A stretch of DNA of 64,000 nucleotides from a virus. Positions 85-39,358 of this stretch are shown one piece after another. Location: positions 1 through 64,000 of the IMG/VR virus record IMGVR_UViG_3300042691_026427, one strand, 5' to 3'. The position numbers and the translations under genes are program-made. The stretch's first letter is position 1. Every line of letters starts with the position of its first letter. Under the pieces are notes generated by a model. That model had not been told where the DNA came from. It did no database searches and saw nothing but the letters and a program-made list of their open reading frames with translations.

Positions 85-113
85 ATTATACAACCTTTTG
101 CAGTAGTTGTCAA
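85..113 (-). promoter_or_regulatory. sigma70-type promoter
   Basis: TTGACA-17 nt-TATAAT on the minus strand. Confidence 0.85.
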
Positions 114-121
114 CTGTTTTT

Positions 122-196
122 TGGTACCGGATGCGAGATTCGAACTTGCGACCAACGCCTTATCAAGGCGCTGCTCTACCACTGAGCTAACCCGGT
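122..196 (-). tRNA. tRNA-Ile(GAT)
   Basis: cloverleaf, loop TT-GAT-AA, GTTCGAATC T-loop, CCA. Confidence 0.95.
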
Positions 197-205
197 ATTC
201 AATCT

Positions 206-280
206 TGGCGCCCACATATGGAATCGAACCACAATCCCCGGTTTCGTAGACCAGTGTATTATCCATTATACTATGCGGGC
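206..280 (-). tRNA. tRNA-Arg(ACG)
   Basis: cloverleaf, CT-ACG-AA, CCA. Confidence 0.95.
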
Positions 281-287
281 AAAATCT

Positions 288-362
288 TGGTGGAAGCCGA
301 GGGAATCGAACCCTTCTAGTCAGCAACCTTGCAAGGGTTACCCGTAGCCCACTACTGCTCCC
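288..362 (-). tRNA. atypical tRNA-Ala(TGC) with minimal D arm
   Basis: CT-TGC-AA loop, G3:U70, T-loop, CCA; D arm only GUAG-UGGG-CUAC. Confidence 0.75.
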
Positions 363-470
363 AATTAAGAAACACACTACATCCAGCGAACCCATCTGCT
401 GGCTTAGTTATTAATCGCTACAGGATAACCGGAATCCTTCGCTGAGGCGTCAGTAATGTGTTTGTTAATT
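363..470 (-). ncRNA. unannotated structured RNA in the tRNA array
   Basis: ends pair over ~18 nt (AAUUAACAAACACAUUAC / GUAGUGUGUUUCUUAAUU); internal CCAGC/GCUGG hairpin. Confidence 0.55.
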
Positions 471-548
471 GGCTCCGTGTGTGAGGATCGAACTCACCTA
501 ATCACTGATTAACAGTCAGGTCCTTGCACCATGCTTGGATTTCACGGA
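470..548 (-). tRNA. tRNA-Asn(GTT)
   Basis: CT-GTT-AA, T-loop, CCA. Confidence 0.9.
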
Positions 549-557
549 ATAGAAAAT

Positions 558-633
558 TGGCGCCACAGACGGGAATCGAACCCGCCTAAATCGGATAGAC
601 AATCCGGTGCCCTACCCAGAGGACTACTGTGGC
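558..633 (-). tRNA. tRNA-Asp(GTC)
   Basis: TT-GTC-TA loop, T-loop, CCA. Confidence 0.9.
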
Positions 634-641
634 ATTAAACT

Positions 642-717
642 TGGCGCCCCGTAGGGGTTTCGATCCCCTTACCTCAGCAGTGACAGTGCTGTGCTCTCCC
701 GATTGAGCTAACGGAGC
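642..717 (-). tRNA. tRNA-Asp(GTC)
   Basis: CT-GTC-AC, CCA. Confidence 0.92.
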
Positions 718-721
718 ATGA

Positions 722-775
722 ATTACGAGCTTGTAGACTAAACTACAATTTACCGGTTTCTAGACGAACTCATAA
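722..775 (-). ncRNA. small structured RNA in the tRNA array
   Basis: closing stem UUAUGAGU/GCUCGUAA; inner UUGUAG/CUACAA hairpin. Confidence 0.45.
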
Positions 776-778
776 ACT

Positions 779-865
779 TGGTGGAGACAACTGGAGTCGA
801 ACCAGTAGTGCCTTTCGGGCGGAAGATTTACAGTCTCCTGGGGTTACCAATTTTCCTACATCTCC
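779..865 (-). tRNA. tRNA-Tyr(GTA)
   Basis: CT-GTA-AA, long variable arm, CCA. Confidence 0.95.
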
Positions 866-867
866 AA

Positions 868-948
868 ATGAAACATGCTAAAAGGGATCTAGTCCACCAT
901 TGGCACTAAGTGCAGGGGGCAGGCTAAAAGGGATCTAACACATTTCAT
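868..948 (-). ncRNA. rod-like RNA with a symmetric internal loop
   Basis: 15-nt direct repeat GCTAAAAGGGATCTA (877-891, 923-937) inside a ~13-bp closing stem. Confidence 0.6.
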
Positions 949-953
949 AAACT

Positions 954-1028
954 TGGTACTCCGAACGGGTATCGATCCCGCTTCTCCAACTTGAAAGGCT
1001 GGTGTCCTAGCCACTAGACGACCGGAGT
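954..1028 (-). tRNA. tRNA-Glu(TTC)
   Basis: CT-TTC-AA, CCA. Confidence 0.93.
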
Positions 1029-1032
1029 AAAA

Positions 1033-1144
1033 TTCTTATACAACTGCACACTCACAGGAGTCGAACCTGCCTACCCAGGACTTGCCCGAGCTGTAATCCG
1101 CTACATTAGCGTGGCCTACGCCTTTATGTGCATGTGTATAAGAA
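1033..1144 (-). ncRNA. tRNA-like RNA with a T arm and extended closing stem, no CCA
   Basis: GCAGG-UUCGACU-CCUGU T arm; UUCUUAUACA/UGUAUAAGAA and UGCACAU/GUGUGCA stems. Confidence 0.6.
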
Positions 1145-1160
1145 CTTCTTATACAATAAA

Positions 1161-1190
1161 TTTTTAAAGAACAGTGTTAATTTCTTAACA
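1161..1190 (-). promoter_or_regulatory. rrn-like boxB-boxA antitermination signal
   Basis: UGUUAA-GAAA-UUAACA hairpin followed by UGUUCUUUAAAAA just downstream of a promoter. Confidence 0.7.
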
Positions 1191-1197
1191 TGTGTAT

Positions 1198-1226
1198 ATT
1201 GTAACATGGTTTTGCCACTTTGTCAA
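1198..1226 (-). promoter_or_regulatory. internal sigma70 promoter of the tRNA array
   Basis: TTGACA-17 nt-TACAAT. Confidence 0.85.
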
Positions 1227-1268
1227 TAGTCTTTGCAACTATTTTTTGTTGTATTTTTACAACAATTT

Positions 1269-1353
1269 TGGTGCCTTTGACTGGACTCGAACCAGCACGC
1301 CTTTCGGCACAGCGACCTCAACGCTGCGTGTCTACCAATTCCACCACAAAGGC
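1269..1353 (-). tRNA. tRNA-Leu(GAG)
   Basis: TT-GAG-GT, long variable arm, CCA. Confidence 0.95.
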
Positions 1354-1363
1354 TTTTTATATT

Positions 1364-1440
1364 TGGTACCCCGTGTCTGATTCGAACAGACAACCAACTC
1401 CTTTTGAGAGAATCCGCACTACCAATTAGCGTAACGGGGC
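1364..1440 (-). tRNA. tRNA-Leu(CAA), short variable loop
   Basis: CT-CAA-AA, 5-nt variable loop, A73, CCA. Confidence 0.85.
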
Positions 1441-1449
1441 ATTTAATTT

Positions 1450-1527
1450 TGGTGCGGTGAACGGGATTCGAACCCGTACTGTACAGATTTTAAGTCTGTT
1501 GCCTCCTACCTATTGCGCTACCACCGC
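1450..1527 (-). tRNA. tRNA-Leu(TAA), short variable loop
   Basis: CT-TAA-AA, 5-nt variable loop, A73, CCA. Confidence 0.88.
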
Positions 1528-1536
1528 GATGTAAAA

Positions 1537-1650
1537 CAGGATACCTTTTTCGATGGCGTGTAAGCCATTGCTCTACCATTGAGCGATCTACGCAAAAGCG
1601 TGGAGTTGGAATCGAACCAACGTGTCGTTAGACATTGCTGTATGTATCCT
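1537..1650 (-). ncRNA. YrlA-like circularly permuted tRNA mimic (CAGCA-motif RNA A)
   Basis: AGGAUAC/GUAUCCU closing stem + CAGCA; T arm, loop-closed acceptor stem, D arm, anticodon-like arm in permuted order. Confidence 0.8.
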
Positions 1651-1658
1651 AAAACTTG

Positions 1659-1734
1659 TGGTGCCATAGACTGGACTCGAACCAGTAACACACGAATTTT
1701 CAGTCCGCTGCTCTACCATTGGAGCTACTATGAC
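1659..1734 (-). tRNA. tRNA-Phe(GAA)
   Basis: CT-GAA-AA, CCA. Confidence 0.95.
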
Positions 1735-1745
1735 ATAAACTTATT

Positions 1746-1819
1746 AGGGGTGACTATCGGGATTTGAACCCGAACTACCAGAGTCACAGTCTAGGTTGCT
1801 ACCATTACAACATAGCCAC
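1746..1819 (-). tRNA. tRNA-His(GTG)
   Basis: CT-GTG-AC, G-1; 3' end CCT (CCA not fully encoded); flanks pair (ACTTATTAGG/CCTAATAAGT). Confidence 0.9.
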
Positions 1820-1837
1820 ACCTAATAAGTCTAAAAT

Positions 1838-1911
1838 TGGCAGGGGTAGTAGGGATCGAACCTACACTCTCAGAGTCAAAGTCTGATATGCTACCATTAC
1901 ATAATACCCCA
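1838..1911 (-). tRNA. tRNA-Gln(TTG)
   Basis: CT-TTG-AC, U1:A72, CCA. Confidence 0.95.
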
Positions 1912-1920
1912 ACAAAATAA

Positions 1921-1976
1921 CAGGATGCTTATTTTTCAATTAAAAGTTGAATTTTAAAAATTGCTGAACGCATCCT
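1921..1976 (-). ncRNA. CAGCA-motif RNA B carrying a Lys(UUU) anticodon stem-loop
   Basis: AGGAUGC/GCAUCCU-G stem, GUU-CAGCAA, inner UUCAA-CUUUUAA-UUGAA. Confidence 0.75.
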
Positions 1977-1981
1977 AAAAC

Positions 1982-2057
1982 TGGTACATCGTGTAGGGAT
2001 TGAACCTACGACCTACGCCGTGTAAAGACGCCGCTACTACCGCTGAGCTAACGATGC
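1982..2057 (-). tRNA. tRNA-Val(TAC)
   Basis: TT-TAC-AC, CCA. Confidence 0.95.
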
Positions 2058-2063
2058 ATAAAT

Positions 2064-2139
2064 TGGTCTCCGTACTAGGATTCGAACCTAGACCTTACCG
2101 CCCCAAACGGCAAGTGCAACCTGATAACACTTTACAGAG
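2064..2139 (-). tRNA. tRNA-Pro(TGG)
   Basis: TT-TGG-GG, C1:G72, CCA. Confidence 0.93.
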
Positions 2140-2146
2140 ATGAAAT

Positions 2147-2220
2147 TGGCGTACCTCCAAGGACTCGAACCTTGACTGACGGTTTTGGAGACCGCGATGC
2201 TGCCATTACACTAGAGATAC
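2147..2220 (-). tRNA. tRNA-Trp(CCA)
   Basis: CT-CCA-AA, CCA end. Confidence 0.95.
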
Positions 2221-2229
2221 ATTATTAAA

Positions 2230-2283
2230 CAGGCTTCGCTTTTTTTCATTTACAGTGAAATTTAAATTTGCTGAAAGAAGCCT
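2230..2283 (-). ncRNA. CAGCA-motif RNA C carrying a Tyr(GUA) anticodon stem-loop
   Basis: AGGCUUC/GAAGCCU-G stem, UUU-CAGCAA, inner UUUCA-CUGUAAA-UGAAA. Confidence 0.75.
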
Positions 2284-2289
2284 AAAACT

Positions 2290-2375
2290 TGGAGGATAGA
2301 ATCAGAATCGAACTGATACCCATTTCTGAGTAGATCGGTTTAGCAAACCAACTTGTGCCCAGCACACTACTATCC
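2290..2375 (-). tRNA. tRNA-Ser(GCT), atypical D arm
   Basis: TT-GCT-AA, long variable arm, CCA; compact D region. Confidence 0.8.
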
Positions 2376-2382
2376 ATAAAAT

Positions 2383-2456
2383 TGGTGCCCCATGACAGAA
2401 TCGAACTGCCGTAACCTGATTACAAAACAGGTGTAATACCATTATACTAATAGGGC
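2383..2456 (-). tRNA. tRNA-Thr(TGT)
   Basis: TT-TGT-AA, CCA. Confidence 0.95.
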
Positions 2457-2461
2457 AAAAT

Positions 2462-2536
2462 TGGCTCCTCAGACTGGGATCGAACCAATGACCGATCGGT
2501 TAACAGCCGATTGCTCTACCGCTGAGCTACTGAGGA
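2462..2536 (-). tRNA. tRNA-Asn(GTT)
   Basis: CT-GTT-AA, canonical arms, CCA. Confidence 0.96.
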
Positions 2537-2544
2537 ATAAAACT

Positions 2545-2622
2545 TGGAGTAGCGGGTGAGATTTGAACTCACGGTTTTACGGATTTGCAATCCATTGCAT
2601 TGGGCCTCTCTGCCACCGCTAC
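2545..2622 (-). tRNA. tRNA-Cys(GCA)
   Basis: TT-GCA-AA, U73, CCA. Confidence 0.95.
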
Positions 2623-2631
2623 ATAAAAACT

Positions 2632-2705
2632 TGGTAGCCAGTCCACGAATTGAACGTGAAATTTCCGCTTATCAGGCGAATGTTATTCCATTTAACTAAC
2701 CGGCC
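2632..2705 (-). tRNA. tRNA-Ile(GAT)
   Basis: CT-GAT-AA, CCA. Confidence 0.9.
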
Positions 2706-2714
2706 AGTTATTTC

Positions 2715-3116
2715 TTACCACTCTGCGTATTCACTTATCATACGAGAGTTTGTATCTTGTCTTTTAGTAGATTCTACACAACGAAGTTTAACTTCTTTCA
2801 CATCACATATTGCTGTAATAGGAATAAGATATACTTTATCTAATTCGTTTACATAAACTGCTAAACAATCAATGTTACTTTCGTTGTAAGAAACTCTATT
2901 AGTGAATGTGTTTTGCGATAGTTTGATTGTAACTACACCGTTACTTTCCAACGATCTAAACTTAACTTGAACTCTTAAAAGTGTCCCATCATGTTTATCT
3001 AACACATAATCATAAGGACAACCTTGAGGCATCTTGCCAGTCCAGTACCCTCGTTTAGCAGAAGCAAGCACAAATGCTGCTTCTCCTATTTCACCTTTTT
3101 CATTTGATATACTCAT
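2715..3116 (-). CDS. free-standing PD-(D/E)XK homing-type endonuclease (I-Ssp6803I/PDDEXK_5-like)
   Basis: KGEIGE...PYDYV...RVQVK motif; AGGAG SD before the ATG at 3116. Confidence 0.8.
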   Translation of the reverse strand: MSISNEKGEIGEAAFVLASAKRGYWTGKMPQGCPYDYVLDKHDGTLLRVQVKFRSLESNGVVTIKLSQNTFTNRVSYNESNIDCLAVYVNELDKVYLIPITAICDVKEVKLRCVESTKRQDTNSRMISEYAEW

Positions 3117-3172
3117 AGTGTTTCTCCTATGAGTAGTTATAACACTCGCCAGGAAAGCGGGCGATAATAAAA

Positions 3173-3237
3173 CAGGATACTTTGTGTCGCTAGACAACCA
3201 AAAAGTTTAGCTAATTTGAATTTGCAGAACGTATCCT
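3173..3237 (-). ncRNA. CAGCA-motif RNA D (CUGCA variant)
   Basis: AGGAUAC/GUAUCCU-G stem, GUU-CUGCAA. Confidence 0.65.
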
Positions 3238-3244
3238 AAAACTA

Positions 3245-3319
3245 TGGTGGACCGTCGGGGGATCGAACCCCGACCTGAGACGTGCAAAGCCCCCGTGCTC
3301 CCATTATCACTAACAGCCC
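3245..3319 (-). tRNA. tRNA-Ala(TGC)
   Basis: TT-TGC-AC, G3:U70, CCA. Confidence 0.95.
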
Positions 3320-3324
3320 ATAAT

Positions 3325-3411
3325 TGGTGGAGTGTGATGGAATCGAACCACTTGGCGCCACCCTACTTGTTAGGCCTACCGGGTTACAGCCGGCAATAGG
3401 GAACACACTCC
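3325..3411 (-). tRNA. D-armless tRNA-Tyr(GTA)-like RNA
   Basis: acceptor GGAGUGU/ACACUCC-A-CCA, CU-GUA-AC loop, T loop; no D hairpin. Confidence 0.7.
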
Positions 3412-3417
3412 AATTTG

Positions 3418-21853: not shown

Positions 21854-22807
21854 TTATTTTGTTGAGTTGATGGGCTTTCCTGATCCATCAACTGCGTTTG
21901 TAACAACTTGGCCTGTTCCCACAGCTTCTCTGCTGTTGGACTGTAGTGGTGCGGATGAAGCTTTGGCGGCTCCTTCACGTGGGGTTTCCTTTTGAACCAA
22001 CTCATTAGGTTTCTCCTTGAATTTCCACAAATTTTGACGTTCGCCTTTATTAATTAACTCAATAACTGCTGTTTCGATTGCAGAACGTAGGGCATAGTTG
22101 CCTGGTTCGTTAAATGTTTGACTTGAATCAAATTCAAAAGCTCTTGTTGCCTGGTTGAAAAATTTCAACGCAGTAGCGCCATCGGCGGTGCTGAGTAAGT
22201 TCTTTTCTACAGTGACTGTAGTTAAAACTTCCCCAGTCTGAACACTCACTAGTCGTAAACTGATTACAACTACATCTTGAGTGTATGCTGTTTGTGCTCC
22301 AATGCCTAACCAACGTGCTCCTGTGCCACCTGTTAGTGTATTAGAGTTATAGTCAATAATGCCACCTTCTAAAATAACACCTGCCATTTGCAGTGGTGGT
22401 AACATCTTAGCATTAGCACCGTCATAGATCTCACGTGTCTGTTTGATCATTTGGCGCTCTTTCAACAAGTTGTCTAGGCCGACACGCTCAACTACAGTGA
22501 ACCATTGACGATTGCCAACTTCTTGTAAACTCTTGATCAAGTATGCTTCTGCACCTTGTGTAACTGCTGTGCTAAACAAGCTCAACGTCGAACTTGGTTT
22601 ACGTTGTCCAGTTAAGTCTTTGAAACCGTATACAGCTACGGTCACGGCCGGGCCAGCAGGACTTGGTATATTGCTAAAACTCTTGTTGATATTTTCACTT
22701 ACCTTAGCTTCTTCTTTTATCTGTATGCTGCCCCATGGACGCACAGTAGAACAACCTGCTAGGACTACAACTGCCAGTGTAATTAAGGATAGTTTGATTG
22801 TGTTCAT
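21854..22807 (-). CDS. csgG: curli secretion channel lipoprotein
   Basis: LAGC lipobox; FKDLTGQRK, STAVTQGA, VVERVGLDNLLKERQMI. Confidence 0.93.
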   Translation of the reverse strand: MNTIKLSLITLAVVVLAGCSTVRPWGSIQIKEEAKVSENINKSFSNIPSPAGPAVTVAVYGFKDLTGQRKPSSTLSLFSTAVTQGAEAYLIKSLQEVGNRQWFTVVERVGLDNLLKERQMIKQTREIYDGANAKMLPPLQMAGVILEGGIIDYNSNTLTGGTGARWLGIGAQTAYTQDVVVISLRLVSVQTGEVLTTVTVEKNLLSTADGATALKFFNQATRAFEFDSSQTFNEPGNYALRSAIETAVIELINKGERQNLWKFKEKPNELVQKETPREGAAKASSAPLQSNSREAVGTGQVVTNAVDGSGKPINSTK

Positions 22808-28077: not shown

Positions 28078-29970
28078 TTACGCCGACTTAACTTCTGTTG
28101 CGTCGACATCTACCACACCGTCGGTAGATTCTTGTTTAGGCTGCTCGGGATTCTCAGCCTTGTATTTTACACTAGTCAATGGTGCTAACGATTGAAATAC
28201 TTCAGAAATCTTCGCTTGAATGTCTTCTGCGTCTTCGCCCTTGACAGATTCTTTAAGAGCAGTAACAGCAGTGTCAATCTTGCTCTTTTCTTCGTCTGTA
28301 ATTTTGTCACCATATTTTTCAAGATCTGTTGCAGTTTCATTTAGCAGTGCTTCTGCAGAATTTCGACGGTCAACTAATGCTCGACGTTGCTTATCTGACT
28401 CTGCATTGAGTTCTGCATCTTTGATCATTGCTGCAATTTCAGCTTCACTCAATCCACTGTTAGATTTAATAGTGATCTTGTTTTCTTTACCTGTGTTCTT
28501 ATCCTTGGCACTGACATGCATAATGCCGTTGGCGTCAATGTCAAAGGTAATTTCAATCTGTGGAGTACCACGACGAGCTGGCGCAATACCTTCTAGGTTA
28601 AATTCACCTAACAGCTTGTTGTACTGTACAAATTCACGCTCACCTTGGAATGCCTTGACAGTAACAGCTGGTTGATTGTCTTCGGCAGTAGAAAATGTTT
28701 GGCTAGCCTTAGTTGGGATAGTTGTATTCTTTTGAATCAACTTGCTCATTACGCCACCCATAGTTTCAATACCTAATGATAGTGGAGTAACGTCTAACAA
28801 TAGAACGTCTGTACGGTCTCCTGCCAGTACTGATCCTTGAATAGCGGCACCTGCGGCCACTGCTTCGTCTGGGTTAACATCCTTACGTGGTGCTTTGCCA
28901 AACAACTGTTCAACAACTTCTTGCACCTTAGGCATACGTGTCATGCCACCAACAAGGATAACTTCGTCGATGTCTGCGGCTGTGACGCCTGCATCTTTCA
29001 TAGCAGTACGGCAAGGTGTTAGACTACGTTGAATTAATTCGTCAACAAGACTTTCTAACTTGGCACGTGACAACTTAATGTTCATGTGTTTAGGACCACT
29101 AGCGTCTGCTGTGATGTATGGTAAGTTAACATCTGTTTGAGCACTGCTTGACAATTCAATCTTTGCCTTTTCAGCGGCTTCTTTTAGACGCTGTAGGGCA
29201 AGTGTGTCTTTCTTAAGATCAACACCATTGTCTTTCTTAAACTCGTCGACTAAGAAATCCATAATACGCTGATCAAAATCTTCACCACCTAGGAATGTAT
29301 CACCGTTGGTGCTCAACACTTCAATTTGCTTTTCGCTATCTACGTTGGCAATTTCAATAATGCTAACGTCAAAAGTTCCACCGCCTAGGTCATAAACTGC
29401 AATTTTTCTATCTTTTGTTGATTCTTTATCAACGCCGTATGCCAATGCAGCGGCTGTTGGTTCGTTAATAATACGTAAGACTTCTAAACCTGCAATACGG
29501 CCTGCATCTTTTGTTGCCTGACGTTGACTGTCATTGAAGTAAGCGGGCACTGTAATAACAGCCTGTGTTACTTCATGTCCTAGATAGTCCTCAGCAGTTT
29601 TCTTCATCTTGCGAAGAACTTCTGCTGAAATTTGTGGTGGCGCTAATTTTTCGTTATTTGCTTCTACCCAAGCATCACCGTTGTCTGCCTTGATAATTTT
29701 ATAAGGCATTAGGTCGATGTCTTTTTGCACGGCCTGCTCTTCGAACTTACGCCCGATTAATCGCTTGCTAGCATAGATAGTATTTTTGGGGTTTGTTACA
29801 GCTTGACGTTTTGCTGATGCACCTACTAGAATTTCTTCATTTGCATATGCAACAATACTAGGTGTAGTACGAGCACCTTCGCTGTTTTCGATTACTTTTG
29901 TTTGTCCGTTTTCAATTACGGCTACGCATGAATTTGTTGTACCTAAATCGATACCGATGACTTTACTCAT
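28078..29970 (-). CDS. dnaK: Hsp70 chaperone
   Basis: [25 protein letters not shown]; full length. Confidence 0.97.
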
Positions 29971-33835: not shown

Positions 33836-33863
33836 TATAAAAAATGGGGCACTAAGGCCCCAT
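33836..33863 (-). terminator. terminator after the DUF2828 gene
   Basis: ATGGGGC/GCCCCAT stem + T run. Confidence 0.75.
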
Positions 33864-33870
33864 AAACACA

Positions 33871-35268
33871 TTAAGCAATTACGCTGTAACGTGGACTGTT
33901 TAGTGTCGCCAACATTACGTTGGTTGGATCTAAATCTTCTGCCTTCAAGATTGAAGTCATGATGCTTGGGCTGAACCCAGACACCAATGCAACTCCCTTC
34001 TTGTCGAACTTGACTGGACTTTGTCCCGCCTTAGCGTTCAAGTTCCAGAATACAATGTTTGGCACAGTGTATCCTGCTTCGGCAAACTTACGTTCGATCA
34101 TTTGCATAGCAGAGTCATCGTGACGAGCACATTGATCAAACTGCATATCACTCATGATCAGAACATACTTTGGCATGTCGTTGGCACTAACACCACCTGC
34201 CTTGGCAACACGCAACACTTCTTCAAATGCGGCGTTTAGGTTAGTGTTCATGTCCCAATCTGCTCGTTGCAACTGTGCCAACTTGCTGGTCAAGTTACCC
34301 TTCAAGATTTCGATCTTGCTCTTTGCAGAGAAAGTCAAAAACATGTCCTTGAATGGACCAGTGTTCTTGTCAGCGAGGTACAGGCCCAAGCTAACGCAAA
34401 CGTCCATACAAGTCAAGTTGGCGTTTCCACCAACTGGGCAGCTCATAGAGCCCGATACGTCACACATTGGTAACACCAGTTCATCACCGATGTAGTTTGG
34501 CAATGCATCCCATTGGGCTTGCATTACAGTGGCATCGCCGCCAAACTTGTTGCTCTTGATGACATCGTAAGGGTAAACAGCCGAAGCGTTTACCTTTGCT
34601 TCACCAGTAACCAACTTGCCCTTGTAAGCTTCATACCCTGCGGCATCGTGCTTCTTAAAGGCCTTTTGGTAACGTGCAGCCGCAAGCGACGGCACATGGC
34701 TATAGTTGATGTTGGTCCAGTCGTTGGCACACATGTTCTGTTCCACAGTCTTGCTCAAAGAGACAAGGCTCTTACGGTAAAACTTTGGGCTCATTCCGAA
34801 GAATGTGCGGATTTCTGCGGCCAATGCACCCTGACGTGGCATCCACTTTGCAGCCAGGCCGTTACGTTCACGAAGAGCGTCACCGATTAGGGTAAATGCC
34901 TGTGCCTTTGCTTCCTTAGAAGTAAAGATCAACAGGTCATCCCAACGACCAAATTCTGCAAGGTGAGGGATCAAACGAGCCAACGCCTTAGGGTTAGTCT
35001 TTTCAAGATTCAAAAGAATCTTACGCACGACTTCACGTTCGCCTGCGCCACCACGGACGTCACGTGCCCACATCAAAAGACGTAGGGCCAGTGTTTCGTC
35101 CTGTGCAAGGGCACGGGCAAATTGGGTGCTCAAGTCCTTACCACGGCTTGCGCCAATAGTGAAGAACAGATCAACAAGATCGCTCTTGCTGGAATCGAAA
35201 GTCTTCATACCGTTATCGGTACGGACAGTCTTAGGTACGGTCTTAACCGCTTGAACAAATGCGTTCAT
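33871..35268 (-). CDS. DUF2828-family Ro60/TROVE-like helical-repeat + vWA protein
   Basis: TDNG..LVDLFF, ARDVRGGAGER, GRWDDL, AAKWMPR, YSHVPS, MIDAS DVSGSM, IVFWNL, LVSGFSP. Confidence 0.85.
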   Translation of the reverse strand: MNAFVQAVKTVPKTVRTDNGMKTFDSSKSDLVDLFFTIGASRGKDLSTQFARALAQDETLALRLLMWARDVRGGAGEREVVRKILLNLEKTNPKALARLIPHLAEFGRWDDLLIFTSKEAKAQAFTLIGDALRERNGLAAKWMPRQGALAAEIRTFFGMSPKFYRKSLVSLSKTVEQNMCANDWTNINYSHVPSLAAARYQKAFKKHDAAGYEAYKGKLVTGEAKVNASAVYPYDVIKSNKFGGDATVMQAQWDALPNYIGDELVLPMCDVSGSMSCPVGGNANLTCMDVCVSLGLYLADKNTGPFKDMFLTFSAKSKIEILKGNLTSKLAQLQRADWDMNTNLNAAFEEVLRVAKAGGVSANDMPKYVLIMSDMQFDQCARHDDSAMQMIERKFAEAGYTVPNIVFWNLNAKAGQSPVKFDKKGVALVSGFSPSIMTSILKAEDLDPTNVMLATLNSPRYSVIA

Positions 35269-35280
35269 TTTATTTTCCTT

Positions 35281-35321
35281 CAGGTTACTTTTAAATTAAA
35301 AAATTATGCTGTATATAACCT
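35281..35321 (-). promoter_or_regulatory. CAGCA-motif element E1 abutting the DUF2828 SD
   Basis: AGGUUAU-AUA-CAGCA...GUAACCU-G directly followed by AAGGAAAAUAAAAUG. Confidence 0.75.
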
Positions 35322-35327
35322 ATACAA

Positions 35328-35564
35328 CAGGATGGGTGGAACCGTAATATTTTTTCTGGCCAACTTTCCCCAGTATATCGGTTCAGTTCCTTGGCCCTAT
35401 CCTAACTTGTGTCTGCGTTAGAAAACATATATGTCTTTCCATAAGTCGTCAGTTCCATTAGTGTTATAGTTTATACATTTCTGTATTCCTACTACAGCCT
35501 TTCCACGGGCCACTGTCTACTGCATTTACGGCTTTAGTATTGTTTAAATTGCTGAATCCATCCT
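35328..35564 (-). ncRNA. CAGCA-motif RNA E2 (~240 nt)
   Basis: AGGAUGG-AUU-CAGCAA...CCAUCCU-G; inner GCCGUAA/UUACGGU helix. Confidence 0.75.
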
Positions 35565-35573
35565 AGGATTTAA

Positions 35574-35737
35574 CAGGTTAGTTGTTGACTGCTTTTATTT
35601 TACTCAGGCCATCACTCTGAGCTTGTTGGTCTATTTCAATAGCTACCTTCACAGCACTTGGGCGAACCTTTGTGCTCCAGCGGACTACCATAGGGTCCAA
35701 CGATCCATAGTAATATGAATGTTGCTGTACCTAACCT
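35574..35737 (-). ncRNA. CAGCA-motif RNA E3 (~165 nt)
   Basis: AGGUUAG-GUA-CAGCAA...CUAACCU-G; several inner hairpins. Confidence 0.75.
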
Positions 35738-35761
35738 TAAAAACTTACTGTCTAAGCATTT

Positions 35762-35790
35762 ATTATATAGTAACTTAATTATCTTGTCAA
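35762..35790 (-). promoter_or_regulatory. sigma70 promoter of the E3-E2-E1-DUF2828 unit
   Basis: TTGACA-17-TATAAT. Confidence 0.88.
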
Positions 35791-35817: not shown

Positions 35818-36588
35818 TTATACACGAATTCCATAAGTTACTACTTGCCACTTATATCCATTCCAGCGACTGTTAACTTTCATTAACGAATTACGTCGAA
35901 TGTCATGAAAAATTGGCACACCTTTTACATCAAAAATCATGCTGTCAACTAGATTAAAAAAGCTACTGGCAACACAATGAATTTCAGATGCATTTTCAAT
36001 GAGCTTTTTATATTGCAACATGTTCTCCGCTTGCCCTGGGCGTACTTCGATAATTTTTTTTGGCTCGAGTCCCCTAGCAGCTCTGTATGTAGGAACATCG
36101 ATAGCAATACCTTCTGGATGATCACTGGCATATCGATGTACCAAAATGTAATCATCAACACCTTCAGTTAACCAAGTGTATAGTTCGTCTGAACCTGTGA
36201 TAGTTTTGGGCATGTGAAAATCTAGATATCTCATTTTGTATGGAATATCCCAATTTTCATATAATTGCTGTTGCCAATGTATTTGTATCTGTTCTAATTC
36301 GCAACCTTTTCTATCAATTTCTTGAGTAATTAAAGGCAAACTTTTTAGATGAATAATATCTGGATTGGCCGTTAAAAAAACATCTTCTTGATCATTGCTG
36401 TAGAATCTCCAAACTTCAATATTTGGATAATCTTGATATAAACATTTGAGTGTTTCAAAATATTCACCTCTAGCCGGATAGTACAATTTTTTGCACATCC
36501 TTGCATAGTGATGCACAATAGGACTCATTACAAATGCATCACCTAATCCTACGCATCTATCAAAAAATAATTTATTAAATTTTGTCAT
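35818..36588 (-). CDS. glycosyltransferase-like protein
   Basis: GLGD, LIENASEIHCVASSF. Confidence 0.55.
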   Translation of the reverse strand: MTKFNKLFFDRCVGLGDAFVMSPIVHHYARMCKKLYYPARGEYFETLKCLYQDYPNIEVWRFYSNDQEDVFLTANPDIIHLKSLPLITQEIDRKGCELEQIQIHWQQQLYENWDIPYKMRYLDFHMPKTITGSDELYTWLTEGVDDYILVHRYASDHPEGIAIDVPTYRAARGLEPKKIIEVRPGQAENMLQYKKLIENASEIHCVASSFFNLVDSMIFDVKGVPIFHDIRRNSLMKVNSRWNGYKWQVVTYGIRV

Positions 36589-37115
36589 TTTTGCCGAATT
36601 TTTAATTTAGTATAAATGTTTTGCACTCCGACGGCCTGGCGAATAGCATCTTGCAAGGCATCGTGTTTACTGCCTTTTGGCATATCAGGATCATATCCTA
36701 GATCAAACAATGTGCGAGTATCACGCAGTTGCCAAAAATTCCAAGGCAAAGGCTTGTTTAATTGTCGATAGATATTTTCAATAATGACCAAGTCGAAGGT
36801 AGCACCGTGACTCCAAAATGCATCACAGCCCCAGGCGAACTTATGGAACTGATCCATAGCATCCACTAACGAAATACGATTGTCCGGACTAAATGCTTCT
36901 TCCATAACTACTGGATCTTGCTTACTCCACCAATCAATTGTGTTGGGATCTATTTCTCTGCCCAACTTGTCTTGATCATCGAGGTCAATACGGAAGTACA
37001 GTTTATCTCCGTATCCGTTGCCCCAGGGATTGAAATGTACAGCACCTAGGCTAAGAACTACTGCGTTTGGGGAAACTGCCATAGTCTCCATATCGATCAT
37101 AAGATGTTTTGTCAT
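36585..37115 (-). CDS. DEDDh 3'-5' exonuclease (exonuclease VIII/RNase AS-like)
   Basis: MIDMET, WSHGATFD, RDTRT, HDALQDA. Confidence 0.85.
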   Translation of the reverse strand: MTKHLMIDMETMAVSPNAVVLSLGAVHFNPWGNGYGDKLYFRIDLDDQDKLGREIDPNTIDWWSKQDPVVMEEAFSPDNRISLVDAMDQFHKFAWGCDAFWSHGATFDLVIIENIYRQLNKPLPWNFWQLRDTRTLFDLGYDPDMPKGSKHDALQDAIRQAVGVQNIYTKLKIRQK

Positions 37116-37905: not shown

Positions 37906-38139
37906 TTAAAATAGTTTCTTTGGTAAGCTATCAGCTTCTAATTTTTTAAGCCAGCGAGCTCTTGCAGCTCCCTTTTTACGTTTTTTTTCAGTTGTGGGCT
38001 TTTCGTAGGCAGTTCTTTTAATGATGTCAATCAACTTGTTGCTTTCGTCGACTTTCTTCTTAAATTTACGTAGTGCAGAAACAATATTACCGTCTCGTAC
38101 CTCTACAGTAATGCCCTTTTTATGATAGTTTTTTGTCAT
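37906..38139 (-). CDS. rpsU: ribosomal protein bS21
   Basis: ALRKFKKKV, YEKPT..KRKK..ARAR. Confidence 0.88.
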   Translation of the reverse strand: MTKNYHKKGITVEVRDGNIVSALRKFKKKVDESNKLIDIIKRTAYEKPTTEKKRKKGAARARWLKKLEADSLPKKLF

Positions 38140-39358
38140 TCGTTTTATCAAAAATTAATTTTGCAGCGTTTCCTTCAACTGCTGATTTACTTATAATAAT
38201 TTTGGAAAGACCGCGCTCAACGAGATTAATTGCATCAAATTGATAGGGCAACAATATCTTTTCTAAAATATTTTTTAAACCTCTTGCATTGGTTTTTAAA
38301 CTTTTAGATTTTTCTGCAATGGCACTAAACGCTTCGTCGTCAAAATCTAAATTAATTCCGTCAATGTCGAACATATATTGGTACTGACGAGTTAAACTAT
38401 TTTTAGGTTCTTTTAGAATTTTTACCAGTTGTTCTGTGCTAAGTTCTTCAACACTGGTAATGATTCCAAATCTTCCTACAAATTCCGGAATCATGCCATA
38501 GGTAATTAAGTCTTTTGTTATGACATCGCTGTAATTTAATGCAGAATCGTCTTTAGCATTAACTTTACTATTAAATCCTATACTAGTGCCGGTGTTCTTT
38601 CGTTTTTCAATAATTTTATCAAGACCTACAAATGCGCCGCCGCATATGAATAAAATTCCCCTAGTGTCAATTTCGATAATATCGCCCCTAGGGCTTTTTC
38701 GTTTGTCACTAGCTGGGACTCTGCTAATAGTACCCTCGACCATTTTTAGCAAAGCCTGTTGTACGCCTTCTCCACTAACATCTCTAGTTATACTAGTGCT
38801 TTCGCCTTTTCTAGAAATCTTATCAATTTCATCAATGTAAACGATTCCACGTTGAGCTTTTTCTACATCACCGTCTGCAGATGCCAATAATCTAACCAAT
38901 ACACTTTCTACATCGTCCCCTACGTAACCAGCTTCAGTTAATCCAGTAGCATCGCAGATAGCAAACGGAATTTCTAAATAGTCTGCCAATTTTCTAGCAA
39001 GAAATGTTTTGCCGCAGCCAGTAGGACCCAACATCAACACATTGGTCTTTTCTAGATCAATGTCTTTGTTGGGATGATTGATTCTTTTAAAATGTTGACA
39101 TACTGCAACACTTAGGGCAATCTTTGCCTCATCTTGCCCAATAATGTACTCATCTAAGTAATCTTTTATTTTACTGGGATTATAAACTGACTTAGTTTCG
39201 TCAATTGGAAACTTCTTAACTTTTTCGTCTTTTAGTATATCCACACATAGATCTATGCAGTCATTACATATGGCGCTTTGATCACTAACAATTAGTTTTT
39301 CAACATCCTGTTTGCTTTTTCCACAAAAATCACAGTGGTGTTCATTGTTCTGTTTCAC
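38120..39358 (-). CDS. clpX: Clp protease ATPase subunit
   Basis: N-terminal C4 zinc finger, GPTGCGKT, EAGYVGDDVE, DVSGEGVQQALLK, IGF loop. Confidence 0.96.
   Translation of the reverse strand: MKQNNEHHCDFCGKSKQDVEKLIVSDQSAICNDCIDLCVDILKDEKVKKFPIDETKSVYNPSKIKDYLDEYIIGQDEAKIALSVAVCQHFKRINHPNKDIDLEKTNVLMLGPTGCGKTFLARKLADYLEIPFAICDATGLTEAGYVGDDVESVLVRLLASADGDVEKAQRGIVYIDEIDKISRKGESTSITRDVSGEGVQQALLKMVEGTISRVPASDKRKSPRGDIIEIDTRGILFICGGAFVGLDKIIEKRKNTGTSIGFNSKVNAKDDSALNYSDVITKDLITYGMIPEFVGRFGIITSVEELSTEQLVKILKEPKNSLTRQYQYMFDIDGINLDFDDEAFSAIAEKSKSLKTNARGLKNILEKILLPYQFDAINLVERGLSKIIISKSAVEGNAAKLIFDKTNDKKLS

What the first reader, a model, noticed from the sequence alone, without database searches (positions are those of the whole stretch)
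33871..35790. Ro60-like DUF2828 protein with a family of seven Y-like RNAs defined by a new covarying motif
Seen: seven minus-strand elements share 5'-AGGNNNN-NUN-C(A/U)GCA...NNNNCCUG-3' (1537-1650, 1921-1976, 2230-2283, 3173-3237, 35281-35321, 35328-35564, 35574-35737). The 7-bp closing stem covaries fully: AUAC/GUAU (twice), AUGC/GCAU, CUUC/GAAG, UUAU/GUAA, AUGG/CCAU, UUAG/CUAA. The enclosed cargo ranges from ~18 to ~215 nt. Three copies lie in tandem between a perfect sigma70 promoter and the DUF2828 gene, and four lie in the tRNA array ~32 kb away. Established: Ro60/Rsr (TROVE + vWA) binds a conserved terminal stem of Y RNAs whose other end is a variable effector module. The DUF2828 protein has a helical N-terminus and a MIDAS vWA domain. 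Inference: the motif is the DUF2828 binding handle and these RNAs are a non-canonical, modular Y-RNA class. The motif does not match the classical Ro site.
Basis: partly seen in the sequence, partly recalled or inferred. Interest (0 to 1): 0.9.

Follow-up and report, generated by a model that had tools for sequence, protein, structure and literature searches.

The report
Phage Ro60-like protein with partner RNAs
A large phage encodes a ring-shaped protein that folds like the RNA-binding autoantigen Ro60, plus seven small RNA genes sharing one conserved "handle". The same protein-handle pairing recurs in very different phages, so these are probably an uncatalogued kind of Y RNA.

Summary
Observation confirmed. 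A strict scan finds exactly the seven reported minus-strand elements: A + 6 bp, 3 nt, C(A/U)GCA, cargo, 6 bp + UG. Shuffles give 0.125.

Three elements lie between a 12/12 sigma-70 promoter and the DUF2828/DUF7788 gene. Four fill tRNA-sized slots in the tRNA array.

The protein model (pLDDT 93.8) matches only Ro60 structures over its full length. Pfam TROVE does not match.

The handle travels with this gene:
- 270 handles on the gene strand against 4 opposite in 80 viral loci.
- 136 against 6 in 80 prokaryotic-assembly loci.
- 9 + 9 in 80 control loci without the gene.
- Picked without knowing gene content, T4 and T5 have neither gene nor handle; KVP40 has both.

In 57 of 80 viral loci a handle ends 10-25 nt before the start codon; here the gap is 12 nt.

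Element 1 carries a YrlA-like, permuted tRNA body. No Rfam family reaches threshold, and no paper I could search describes the handle.

Best reading (about 0.8): a Ro60-type RNP with a new, modular Y-RNA class. Binding is not shown.

The handle resembles Dictyostelium Class I RNAs. Kinship is untested (about 0.1).

This scan has already noted the same family on many other genomes.

The parts
35762..35790 (-). Sigma-70-type promoter TTGACA-17 nt-TATAAT of the RNA-RNA-RNA-gene unit
   Evidence: 12 of 12 consensus match. Conserved in close relatives.
35574..35737 (-). Handle RNA 7 (164 nt). Stem AGGUUAG/CUAACCU, linker GUA, CAGCAA. Structured cargo that is not tRNA-like.
   Evidence: Orthologues in 7 related contigs keep the handle and show compensatory changes in cargo helices.
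35328..35564 (-). Handle RNA 6 (237 nt). Stem AGGAUGG/CCAUCCU, linker AUU, CAGCAA. Long structured cargo.
   Evidence: Compensatory changes in several cargo helices in relatives.
35281..35321 (-). Handle RNA 5 (41 nt), close to a bare handle with CAGCAU. It ends 12 nt before the ATG, and the AAGGA ribosome-binding site lies in between.
   Evidence: R1 scores 20.1 bits. A handle ends 10-25 nt before the start codon in 57 of 80 related loci.
33871..35268 (-). Gene for the 465-aa DUF2828 + DUF7788 protein: a Ro60-like helical ring plus a vWA domain with a complete MIDAS site
   Evidence: Pfam. phrog_850 'RNA-binding protein', E 2e-149. AlphaFold2 pLDDT 93.8. Foldseek top 13 hits are all Ro60.
33844..33863 (-). 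Intrinsic terminator after the gene
   Evidence: 7-bp GC-rich stem followed by a T run.
3173..3237 (-). Handle RNA 4 (65 nt, CUGCAA variant), 7 nt downstream of tRNA-Ala
   Evidence: R1 scores 42.1 bits.
2230..2283 (-). Handle RNA 3 (54 nt), between tRNA-Ser and tRNA-Trp
   Evidence: R1 scores 56.4 bits. Rfam Dicty_Class_I_RNA scores 28.6 bits, below the gathering score of 41.5.
1921..1976 (-). Handle RNA 2 (56 nt), between tRNA-Val and tRNA-Gln
   Evidence: R1 scores 63.4 bits. Rfam Dicty_Class_I_RNA scores 30.7 bits, below the gathering score.
1537..1650 (-). Handle RNA 1 (114 nt). The cargo is a permuted tRNA body in the order T-arm, loop-closed acceptor helix, D-arm, anticodon-like arm.
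   Evidence: Rfam YrlA scores 29.6 bits over the whole model, against a gathering score of 69. MFE fold. R1 scores 27.2 bits.
122..3319 (-). tRNA array (22 tRNA genes) that hosts handle RNAs 1-4 on the same strand
   Evidence: ARAGORN. Rfam.

Best explanation
The 465-aa DUF2828/DUF7788 protein is a phage Ro60-type protein: a helical ring plus a vWA/MIDAS domain. The seven RNAs are its partner Y-like RNAs.

The handle. Each RNA is closed by one constant handle. It has an invariant A-U closing pair plus six covarying base pairs, a 3-nt linker, single-stranded C(A/U)GCA(A), and a 3' G after the helix. This handle is most likely the protein's docking site. It would play the role that the conserved terminal stem plays for Ro60 on Y RNAs.

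The cargo. The enclosed cargo is the variable effector part. There are short A/U-rich loops, one permuted tRNA body like that of YrlA, and two long structured modules.

Biogenesis (inferred). Three RNAs are made from a consensus promoter as a leader of the protein's own mRNA. Four are released from the tRNA precursor when the flanking tRNAs are processed.

Feedback (inferred). The last handle ends 12 nt before the start codon, with the ribosome-binding site in between. Protein bound there could repress its own translation.

Function (inferred by analogy with Rsr-YrlA-PNPase and phiRo60-Yrl-PNPase). The RNP tethers or decoys tRNA-recognising or RNA-degrading enzymes during infection.
For: Shown here:
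- Seven handles against 0.125 expected by chance.
- Full-length Ro60 fold. Foldseek E values run from 6.6e-9 to 3.5e-5 for 9KOP, 2I91, 1YVR, 1YVP, 9L5Y, 2NVO and 9NEP, and no other fold matches the ring.
- Conserved MIDAS residues.
- The same handle sits beside the gene in Ralstonia, Salmonella (Felix-type), Listeria, Campylobacter, Bacillus, Staphylococcus, Enterococcus, Vibrio and Mycobacterium phages.
- The helix has changes on both sides in 6 of 7 pairs. These elements were selected for pairing, so only the covariation counts as evidence. In the mycobacteriophage the closing A-U pair becomes U-A.
- Covariance model R1 gives 178 of 179 hits on the gene strand in 1.16 Mb.
- An independent regex gives 270 against 4, in 76 of 80 loci, mostly within 500 nt upstream of the gene. 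In 80 prokaryotic-assembly loci it gives 136 against 6.
- Control DNA of related phages, centred on the ribonucleotide reductase gene and lacking the DUF2828 gene, gives 9 + 9 hits in 845 kb.
- In five complete phage genomes every R1 hit lies in the gene/tRNA region.
- I picked T4, T5 and KVP40 without knowing their gene content. T4 and T5 have no gene and no hit. KVP40 has the gene and three hits on the same strand.
- In 4 of 5 whole bacterial genomes R1 hits lie beside the gene, in three of them as the best hit.
- tRNA-like cargo (T-arm, closed acceptor, D-arm) recurs in Gram-negative and Gram-positive phages and matches YrlA below threshold.
- Cargo helices covary in close relatives.

From the literature: Ro60 genes sit next to their Y RNA genes on the same strand (PMC4201824). 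A phage Ro60 binds phage Y-like RNAs and host PNPase (PMC12135203).
Against: - No binding, expression or RNA-end data exist; all evidence is comparative.
- Pfam TROVE does not match the protein. A family profile gives only weak hits (E 0.04-0.17) to Ro60 chains, and only in the vWA part.
- The handle lacks the CGAA-type Ro site, so the docking geometry cannot be carried over from solved complexes.
- 23 of 80 prokaryotic-assembly loci had no strict handle. Some of these are cut at contig ends; others may carry variants.
- Four of the seven copies lie 32 kb from the gene.
- This record, estimated 44% complete, has no RtcB or Rnl2 RNA ligase. A repair context is therefore not evident here.
Confidence: 0.8

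Rival explanations
1. The handle is a processing or stability cassette of phage tRNA operons. A host enzyme or another phage factor reads it. The DUF2828 gene lies nearby only because it also belongs to the tRNA or RNA-metabolism gene neighbourhood.
For: Four copies fill tRNA-sized slots 5-9 nt from neighbouring tRNAs. Many related loci carry handles inside tRNA arrays. KVP40's hits lie 7-8 kb from its gene.
Against: - The tRNA-bearing phages T4 and T5 lack the handle.
- The handle follows the gene through hosts as different as Actinobacteria, Firmicutes, Proteobacteria, Campylobacter and Chloroflexi. A shared host reader is therefore unlikely.
- In many loci the handles sit next to the gene with no tRNA beside them. 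Examples are Staphylococcus phage SEP9 and the bacterial genomes.
- No other neighbouring gene is constant.
Confidence: 0.1
2. The elements are only cis-acting leader structures, such as operators or attenuators, that control the DUF2828 mRNA. They are not trans-acting RNAs.
For: A handle ends 10-25 nt before the start codon in 57 of 80 loci, and 12 nt here. Three elements lie between the promoter and the ORF.
Against: - Four copies lie 32 kb away among tRNAs.
- The copies lie downstream of the gene in Felix-type, SEP9 and JoeDirt phages.
- There are several tandem copies with different structured cargo, including tRNA mimics.

Autoregulation by the last handle is compatible with the main explanation.
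Confidence: 0.05
3. The elements are chance matches or a selfish DNA repeat with no RNA function.
For: The motif is short. The regex finds about 10 hits per Mb of strand in control DNA.
Against: - There are 7 elements against 0.125 expected.
- The strand bias is 270 to 4 and 136 to 6.
- Compensatory changes keep the helix while its sequence differs.
- All copies are intergenic.
Confidence: 0.01

Closest known systems
Bacterial and phage Ro60 (Rsr, TROVE + vWA) with Y RNAs YrlA/YrlB (Rfam RF02553; Chen et al. 2014, PMC4201824)
   Same: - Ring plus vWA/MIDAS fold.
- RNA genes beside the protein gene on the same strand.
- RNAs closed by a 5'/3' terminal stem, with a variable module.
- One RNA per genome often carries a T-arm, closed acceptor and D-arm tRNA mimic.
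   Different: - The protein belongs to Pfam DUF2828/DUF7788, not TROVE.
- The handle is a 7-bp helix + 3 nt + CAGCAA + 3' G, not GNCGAAN0-1G.
- YrlA scores are 29.6 and 39.8 bits against a gathering score of 69.
- There are up to seven RNAs, many lying inside tRNA arrays.
phiRo60 of Thermus phage phiLo with Yrl1/Yrl2 (PDB 9KOP, 9L5Y; PMC12135203)
   Same: It is a phage-encoded Ro60 with its partner RNA genes just upstream. It is also the best structural match of the model (E 6.6e-9).
   Different: phiRo60 is a canonical TROVE protein whose RNAs carry a CGAA bulge. Sequence identity is about 16%. Binding and the PNPase interaction are shown there and untested here.
Class I RNAs of dictyostelid social amoebae (Rfam RF01414; Kjellin et al. 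2021, PMC7919456)
   Same: - A short terminal helix with a conserved 5' (A)AG and 3' CUGU.
- Single-stranded ..UUACAGCAA next to the 5' strand.
- A variable interior and a length of 42-65 nt.
- Elements 2 and 3 align to the whole model at 30.7 and 28.6 bits.
   Different: - The scores are below the gathering score of 41.5.
- Short elements of five other phages gave no match at E <= 1.
- The Dictyostelium linker is one base longer (CUUA against NUN).
- Class I genes have their own eukaryotic promoter (DUSE).
- The only proven binder is the RRM protein Rnp1A.
- Whether dictyostelids encode a DUF2828 protein could not be checked.

Membership tests
Pfam DUF2828 (PF11443) / DUF7788 (PF25043) | Score above the curated cut-off of both models | tested here: met
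   104.7 bits (cut-off 29) and 177 bits (cut-off 27.1). phrog_850 E 2.3e-149.
Ro60 / TROVE proteins | Sequence match to the TROVE domain | tested here: not met
   Pfam TROVE gives no hit at E <= 0.01. The family profile against PDB sequences gives only E 0.04-0.17, restricted to the vWA segment.
Ro60 / TROVE proteins | Fold: alpha-helical ring followed by a vWA domain with a MIDAS site | tested here: met
   The model has pLDDT 93.8 and pTM 0.91. Foldseek ranks 1-13 are all Ro60, with 500-570 aligned columns and TM 0.39-0.66. DxSxS...T...D is conserved.
Ro60 / TROVE proteins | Binds Y RNA through its terminal stem | not testable with these tools
   Needs gel-shift, RIP or structural work.
Y RNA / YrlA (RF02553) | Rfam gathering score of 69 bits | tested here: not met
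   Element 1 scores 29.6 bits. A mycobacteriophage relative scores 39.8 bits. The other elements give no match.
Y RNA / YrlA (RF02553) | Ro-binding motif GNCGAAN0-1G near the 5' strand of the terminal stem | tested here: not met
   All seven elements carry C(A/U)GCA(A/U) at that place.
Y RNA / YrlA (RF02553) | Encoded near the Ro60-type gene, on the same strand | tested here: met
   Three elements lie directly upstream of the gene. Gene-strand against opposite-strand counts are 270 to 4 and 136 to 6.
Y RNA / YrlA (RF02553) | tRNA-like module (T-arm, acceptor-like helix, D-arm) | tested here: met
   Met for element 1 only. Such modules recur in other phages.
Dictyostelium Class I RNA (RF01414) | Rfam gathering score of 41.5 bits | tested here: not met
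   30.7 and 28.6 bits. No match at E <= 1 in five other phage loci.
Dictyostelium Class I RNA (RF01414) | 6-bp terminal stem, adjacent 11-nt motif CCUUACAGCAA, ends AAG...CUGU | tested here: inconclusive
   The stem, CAGCAA, the U in the linker and the (U/A)AG...CUGU ends are present. The linker is one base shorter.
Dictyostelium Class I RNA (RF01414) | DUSE promoter about 60 nt upstream; dictyostelid genome | tested here: not met
   The host is a phage record with sigma-70 promoters.

The most novel reading that the evidence does not exclude
The Class I RNAs of dictyostelid amoebae were reported as unique to that group and have no known function. They may be eukaryotic members of this CAGCAA-handle RNA class, working with a DUF2828-type Ro60-like protein.

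DUF2828 proteins do occur in eukaryotes: plants, fungi, diatoms and a diplonemid.

[quoted passage not shown] One of them, DDB_G0281243, has no known function (bioRxiv 10.1101/2020.04.05.026054). I could not obtain its sequence or check any dictyostelid proteome.
Probability: 0.1. Interest if true: 0.9.

Novelty: new variant of a known kind. Interest (0 to 1): 0.75.

Why it matters
Ro60 and Y RNAs are known in animals, about 5% of bacteria and a few phages. Their bacterial and viral roles are still poorly understood.

- **A second family.** A much more widespread phage family shares the Ro60 fold. It has homologues in 711 phage records and about 6,250 clusters at 50% identity, and it comes with its own sharply defined RNA handle.
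- **Model phages.** The family occurs in Felix O1-type, KVP40, Listeria, Staphylococcus, Campylobacter and mycobacteriophages, which gives experimenters workable systems and a 41-nt minimal ligand to test.
- **Missed genes.** Many unannotated "spacers" in phage tRNA arrays would be explained as genes.
- **tRNA conflicts.** The modular cargo, including tRNA mimics, points to a role in phage-host conflicts over tRNA and RNA decay.
- **Class I RNAs.** It offers a testable lead on the unexplained Class I RNAs of Dictyostelium.

Tried and rejected
- **Rfam.** Searches at gathering thresholds and at permissive E-values found no family for the handle. The two long cargos match nothing.
- **Sequence against PDB.** The single protein found nothing.
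- **Close phage relatives.** Megablast of 14 kb of the window against the phage collection found no match.
- **ESM Atlas.** It returned only the protein's own family.
- **Kin of a virus record.** No order-wide 2x2 table could be made.
- **Dictyostelium.** The Avesson 2011 paper is not held. DDB_G0281243 is mentioned in one preprint only. The proteome files in the Kjellin supplement are truncated, and motif look-ups there found only unrelated proteins. The 'longer' homologue search listed no amoebozoan protein.
- **Alignment.** MAFFT misplaced the 3' ends of some elements, so the model was built from 13 cleanly aligned short elements.
- **RNA ligases.** RtcB and Rnl2 were not found in this 44%-complete record.
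- **Literature.** Searches for DUF2828, Ro-like with phage, and CAGCAA with Y RNA found no description of this RNA family.
Full report
**What is there.** The window belongs to a 149,248-bp IMG/VR virus record. It has 40% G+C and is estimated to be 44% complete. The record carries a minus-strand array of 22 tRNA genes at 122-3319, plus one more tRNA at 12.9 kb. A 465-aa ORF at 33871-35268 (-) matches Pfam DUF2828 and DUF7788. It also matches phrog_850, annotated "RNA-binding protein".

**The observation.** A strict scan for AGG-N4-N2..4-C[AT]GCA ... All are on the minus strand and all are intergenic. Markov shuffles give 0.125 per window. The rest of the record holds no further copy.

A 12/12 sigma-70 promoter lies at 35790-35762. 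Three elements, the ORF and an intrinsic terminator at 33863-33844 follow it. The other four elements occupy tRNA-sized slots in the tRNA array, 5-9 nt from the neighbouring tRNAs.

**The protein.** Relatives are very numerous. There are 711 phage records and about 6,250 clusters at 50% identity. Some mycobacteriophage copies are already annotated "Ro-like RNA binding protein".

With an alignment of 60 diverse relatives, AlphaFold2 gives a confident model with pLDDT 93.8 and pTM 0.91. Its 13 best PDB matches are all Ro60 structures:
- Thermus phage phiRo60
- Xenopus Ro60
- Deinococcus Rsr
- human Ro60

They align over 500-570 columns, with E values from 6.6e-9 to 3.5e-5. After them come only isolated vWA domains. 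The MIDAS residues are conserved.

By sequence the link is weak. Pfam TROVE does not match. A family profile reaches Ro60 chains only at E 0.04-0.17, and only in the vWA part. The protein therefore has the Ro60 fold but is not a TROVE-family member by sequence.

**The RNA handle travels with the gene.** A generic scan (6-bp helix, 2-4 nt, CNGCAA, helix, UG) finds the same design in unrelated phages. It sits next to the homologous gene or in the adjoining tRNA array, and always on the gene's strand:
- Ralstonia RSP15: 6 copies
- Salmonella BPS15Q2, Felix O1 type: 4
- Listeria LMTA-57: 3
- Campylobacter F207: 2
- Bacillus Tsamsa: 2-3
- Staphylococcus SEP9: 3
- Enterococcus EF1: 4
- Vibrio D491s: 1
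- Mycobacterium JoeDirt: 3

Thirteen short elements from seven phages align cleanly. Six of the seven helix pairs show changes on both sides, while A2, C12, G14, C15, A16, A17 and the 3' U-G are invariant. These elements were selected for pairing, so it is the covariation that counts, not the percentage paired. In the mycobacteriophage the closing A-U pair is U-A, which shows that this pair also covaries.

**Quantified tests.**
- A covariance model (R1) run over 80 IMG/VR loci holding a homologue (1.16 Mb) gives 179 hits at E <= 1. Of these, 178 are on the gene strand.
- My independent regex gives 270 gene-strand hits against 4 opposite, in 76 of 80 loci. 151 of them lie within 500 nt upstream of the gene.
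- In 80 loci from bacterial and archaeal assemblies (32-55% identity; Clostridia, Chloroflexi, Proteobacteria and others) the count is 136 against 6. 53 loci have a handle within 1 kb of the gene.
- Control: 80 loci (845 kb) of related phages centred on the ribonucleotide reductase gene. None holds the DUF2828 gene. They give 9 + 9 hits with no strand bias.
- In five complete phage genomes (655 kb) every R1 hit lies in the gene/tRNA region.
- I picked three tRNA-bearing phages without knowing their gene content. T4 and T5 have neither gene nor hits. KVP40 has the gene at 168.3 kb and three hits at 176.0-177.4 kb on the same strand.
- In four of five whole bacterial genomes (3-9 Mb) R1 hits lie beside the gene on its strand, in three of them as the best hit.

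That criterion is not met.

**Cargo.** Across 460 distinct handles from these loci, total lengths fall into three groups:
- about 50-70 nt
- about 80-120 nt, roughly half of them with a T-loop-like GTTCRANNC
- 140-320 nt

In this window, element 1 (1537-1650) carries a permuted tRNA body. The order is T-arm, acceptor helix closed by UUUU, D-arm, then an anticodon-like arm. It aligns to the whole Rfam YrlA model at 29.6 bits, against a gathering score of 69. Equivalent modules occur in the Ralstonia, Salmonella, Bacillus, Enterococcus and Mycobacterium phages.

Elements 2-4 are short with A/U-rich interiors. Element 5 is nearly a bare handle. Elements 6 and 7 have long cargos that match no Rfam family. 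Their helices are kept through compensatory changes in seven or eight close relatives.

**Position relative to the start codon.** In 57 of 80 related loci a handle ends 10-25 nt before the inferred start codon. Here the gap is 12 nt and holds the AAGGA ribosome-binding site. The spacing is conserved among close relatives even where the cargo length changes. I infer that the protein can regulate its own translation through this handle. This is not shown.

**Mechanism, and which steps are inferred.**
- Shown: the fold, the handle and its covariation, the genomic coupling, the transcription signals and the tRNA-mimic cargo.
- Inferred: the handle is the protein's docking site. The array copies are freed when the flanking tRNAs are processed. 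The cargos recruit or decoy tRNA-recognising or RNA-degrading enzymes.

The last point rests on analogy with two known systems: Rsr-YrlA-PNPase (PMC4201824), and phiRo60-Yrl, which binds and dampens host PNPase (PMC12135203). An Rv2179c-like 3'-5' exoribonuclease gene lies two genes upstream, at 36585-37115, and a metallophosphoesterase lies downstream. Related phages carry RNA ligase, RtcB or a CCA-adding enzyme nearby. This record has no RtcB or Rnl2, but it is incomplete.

**Comparison with known families.** The system works like Ro60 with Y RNA. It fails two membership tests: Pfam TROVE for the protein, and the gathering score and CGAA-type Ro site of YrlA for the RNAs. Rfam 15 has no family for the handle. 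The papers I could search do not describe it. Chen et al. searched only genomes annotated with TROVE proteins. I therefore class it as a new variant of a known kind.

**Dictyostelium.** Elements 2 and 3 align end to end with Rfam Dicty_Class_I_RNA at 30.7 and 28.6 bits, against a gathering score of 41.5. Class I RNAs have these published features (PMC7919456):
- a 6-bp terminal stem
- an adjacent CCUUACAGCAA motif with U3, C6, C9, A10 and A11 nearly invariant
- a variable interior
- AAG...CUGU ends

The phage handle shows each of them. Against kinship:
- the linker is one base shorter
- short elements of five other phages gave no match at E <= 1
- the only proven Class I binder is an RRM protein

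DUF2828 proteins do exist in eukaryotes. One of four proteins pulled down with DdR-21, DDB_G0281243, has no known function. I could not test whether dictyostelids encode the family. I put kinship at about 0.1.

**Earlier notes of this scan.** The same family (DUF2828 protein, CAGCAA handle, tRNA arrays) has already been noted on many other genomes. At least 154 genomes hold all the words of my first look-up, and several notes also raise the Class I resemblance. I reached the YrlA and Class I matches from Rfam before reading those notes, and the counts above are my own. One note carried a later check that put the bold reading at 6 in 100. This tempered my estimate.

Noticed in passing
window 2715-3116 (-): A 133-aa ORF inside the tRNA array matches phrog_5018, of unknown function (E 1e-11). 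It sits directly downstream of handle RNA 4.
   Followed up: partly
window 3328-3412 (-) and about 470-555 (-): tRNA-like stretches that ARAGORN did not call. One gives a sub-threshold tRNA-Sec-type match (29.2 bits). By eye, a T-arm and acceptor-like segment lies between tRNA-Ala and tRNA-Asp. These may be further non-canonical tRNA-like RNAs.
   Followed up: no
window 85-113 (-) and 1198-1226 (-): A second perfect TTGACA-17-TATAAT promoter lies beyond the 3' end of the tRNA array, and an 11/12 promoter lies inside it. At least one further start therefore lies within the array.
   Followed up: no
window about 880-945 (-): A direct repeat of about 15 nt (TAGATCCCTTTTAGC), present twice between tRNA-Glu and tRNA-Tyr. 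Seen by eye.
   Followed up: no
window 17961-46200 (-): Auxiliary genes unusual for a phage: Hsp70/DnaK (28078-29970), a ClpX-like ATPase (38120-39358), a CsgG-like protein (21854-22807), a FecR-domain protein and the ribonucleotide reductase small chain.
   Followed up: partly
L004 (Listeria phage LMTA-57) 4470-5021 and 1983-2081: A ROOL RNA match just below its gathering score (88.5 against 99.1 bits). A drum RNA match above its gathering score (50.2 against 43). Both lie in the tRNA array next to the DUF2828 gene.
   Followed up: no
KVP40 record NC_005083: 168343-168909 (-) and 176045-177433 (-): Vibrio phage KVP40 carries a DUF7788 gene and three handle-model hits 7-8 kb upstream on the same strand.
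   Followed up: partly
L157 (contig binned as a Woesearchaeota archaeon): A DUF2828 homologue with two handles 61 and 128 nt upstream. This is either an archaeal virus or host copy, or a mis-binned phage contig.
   Followed up: no
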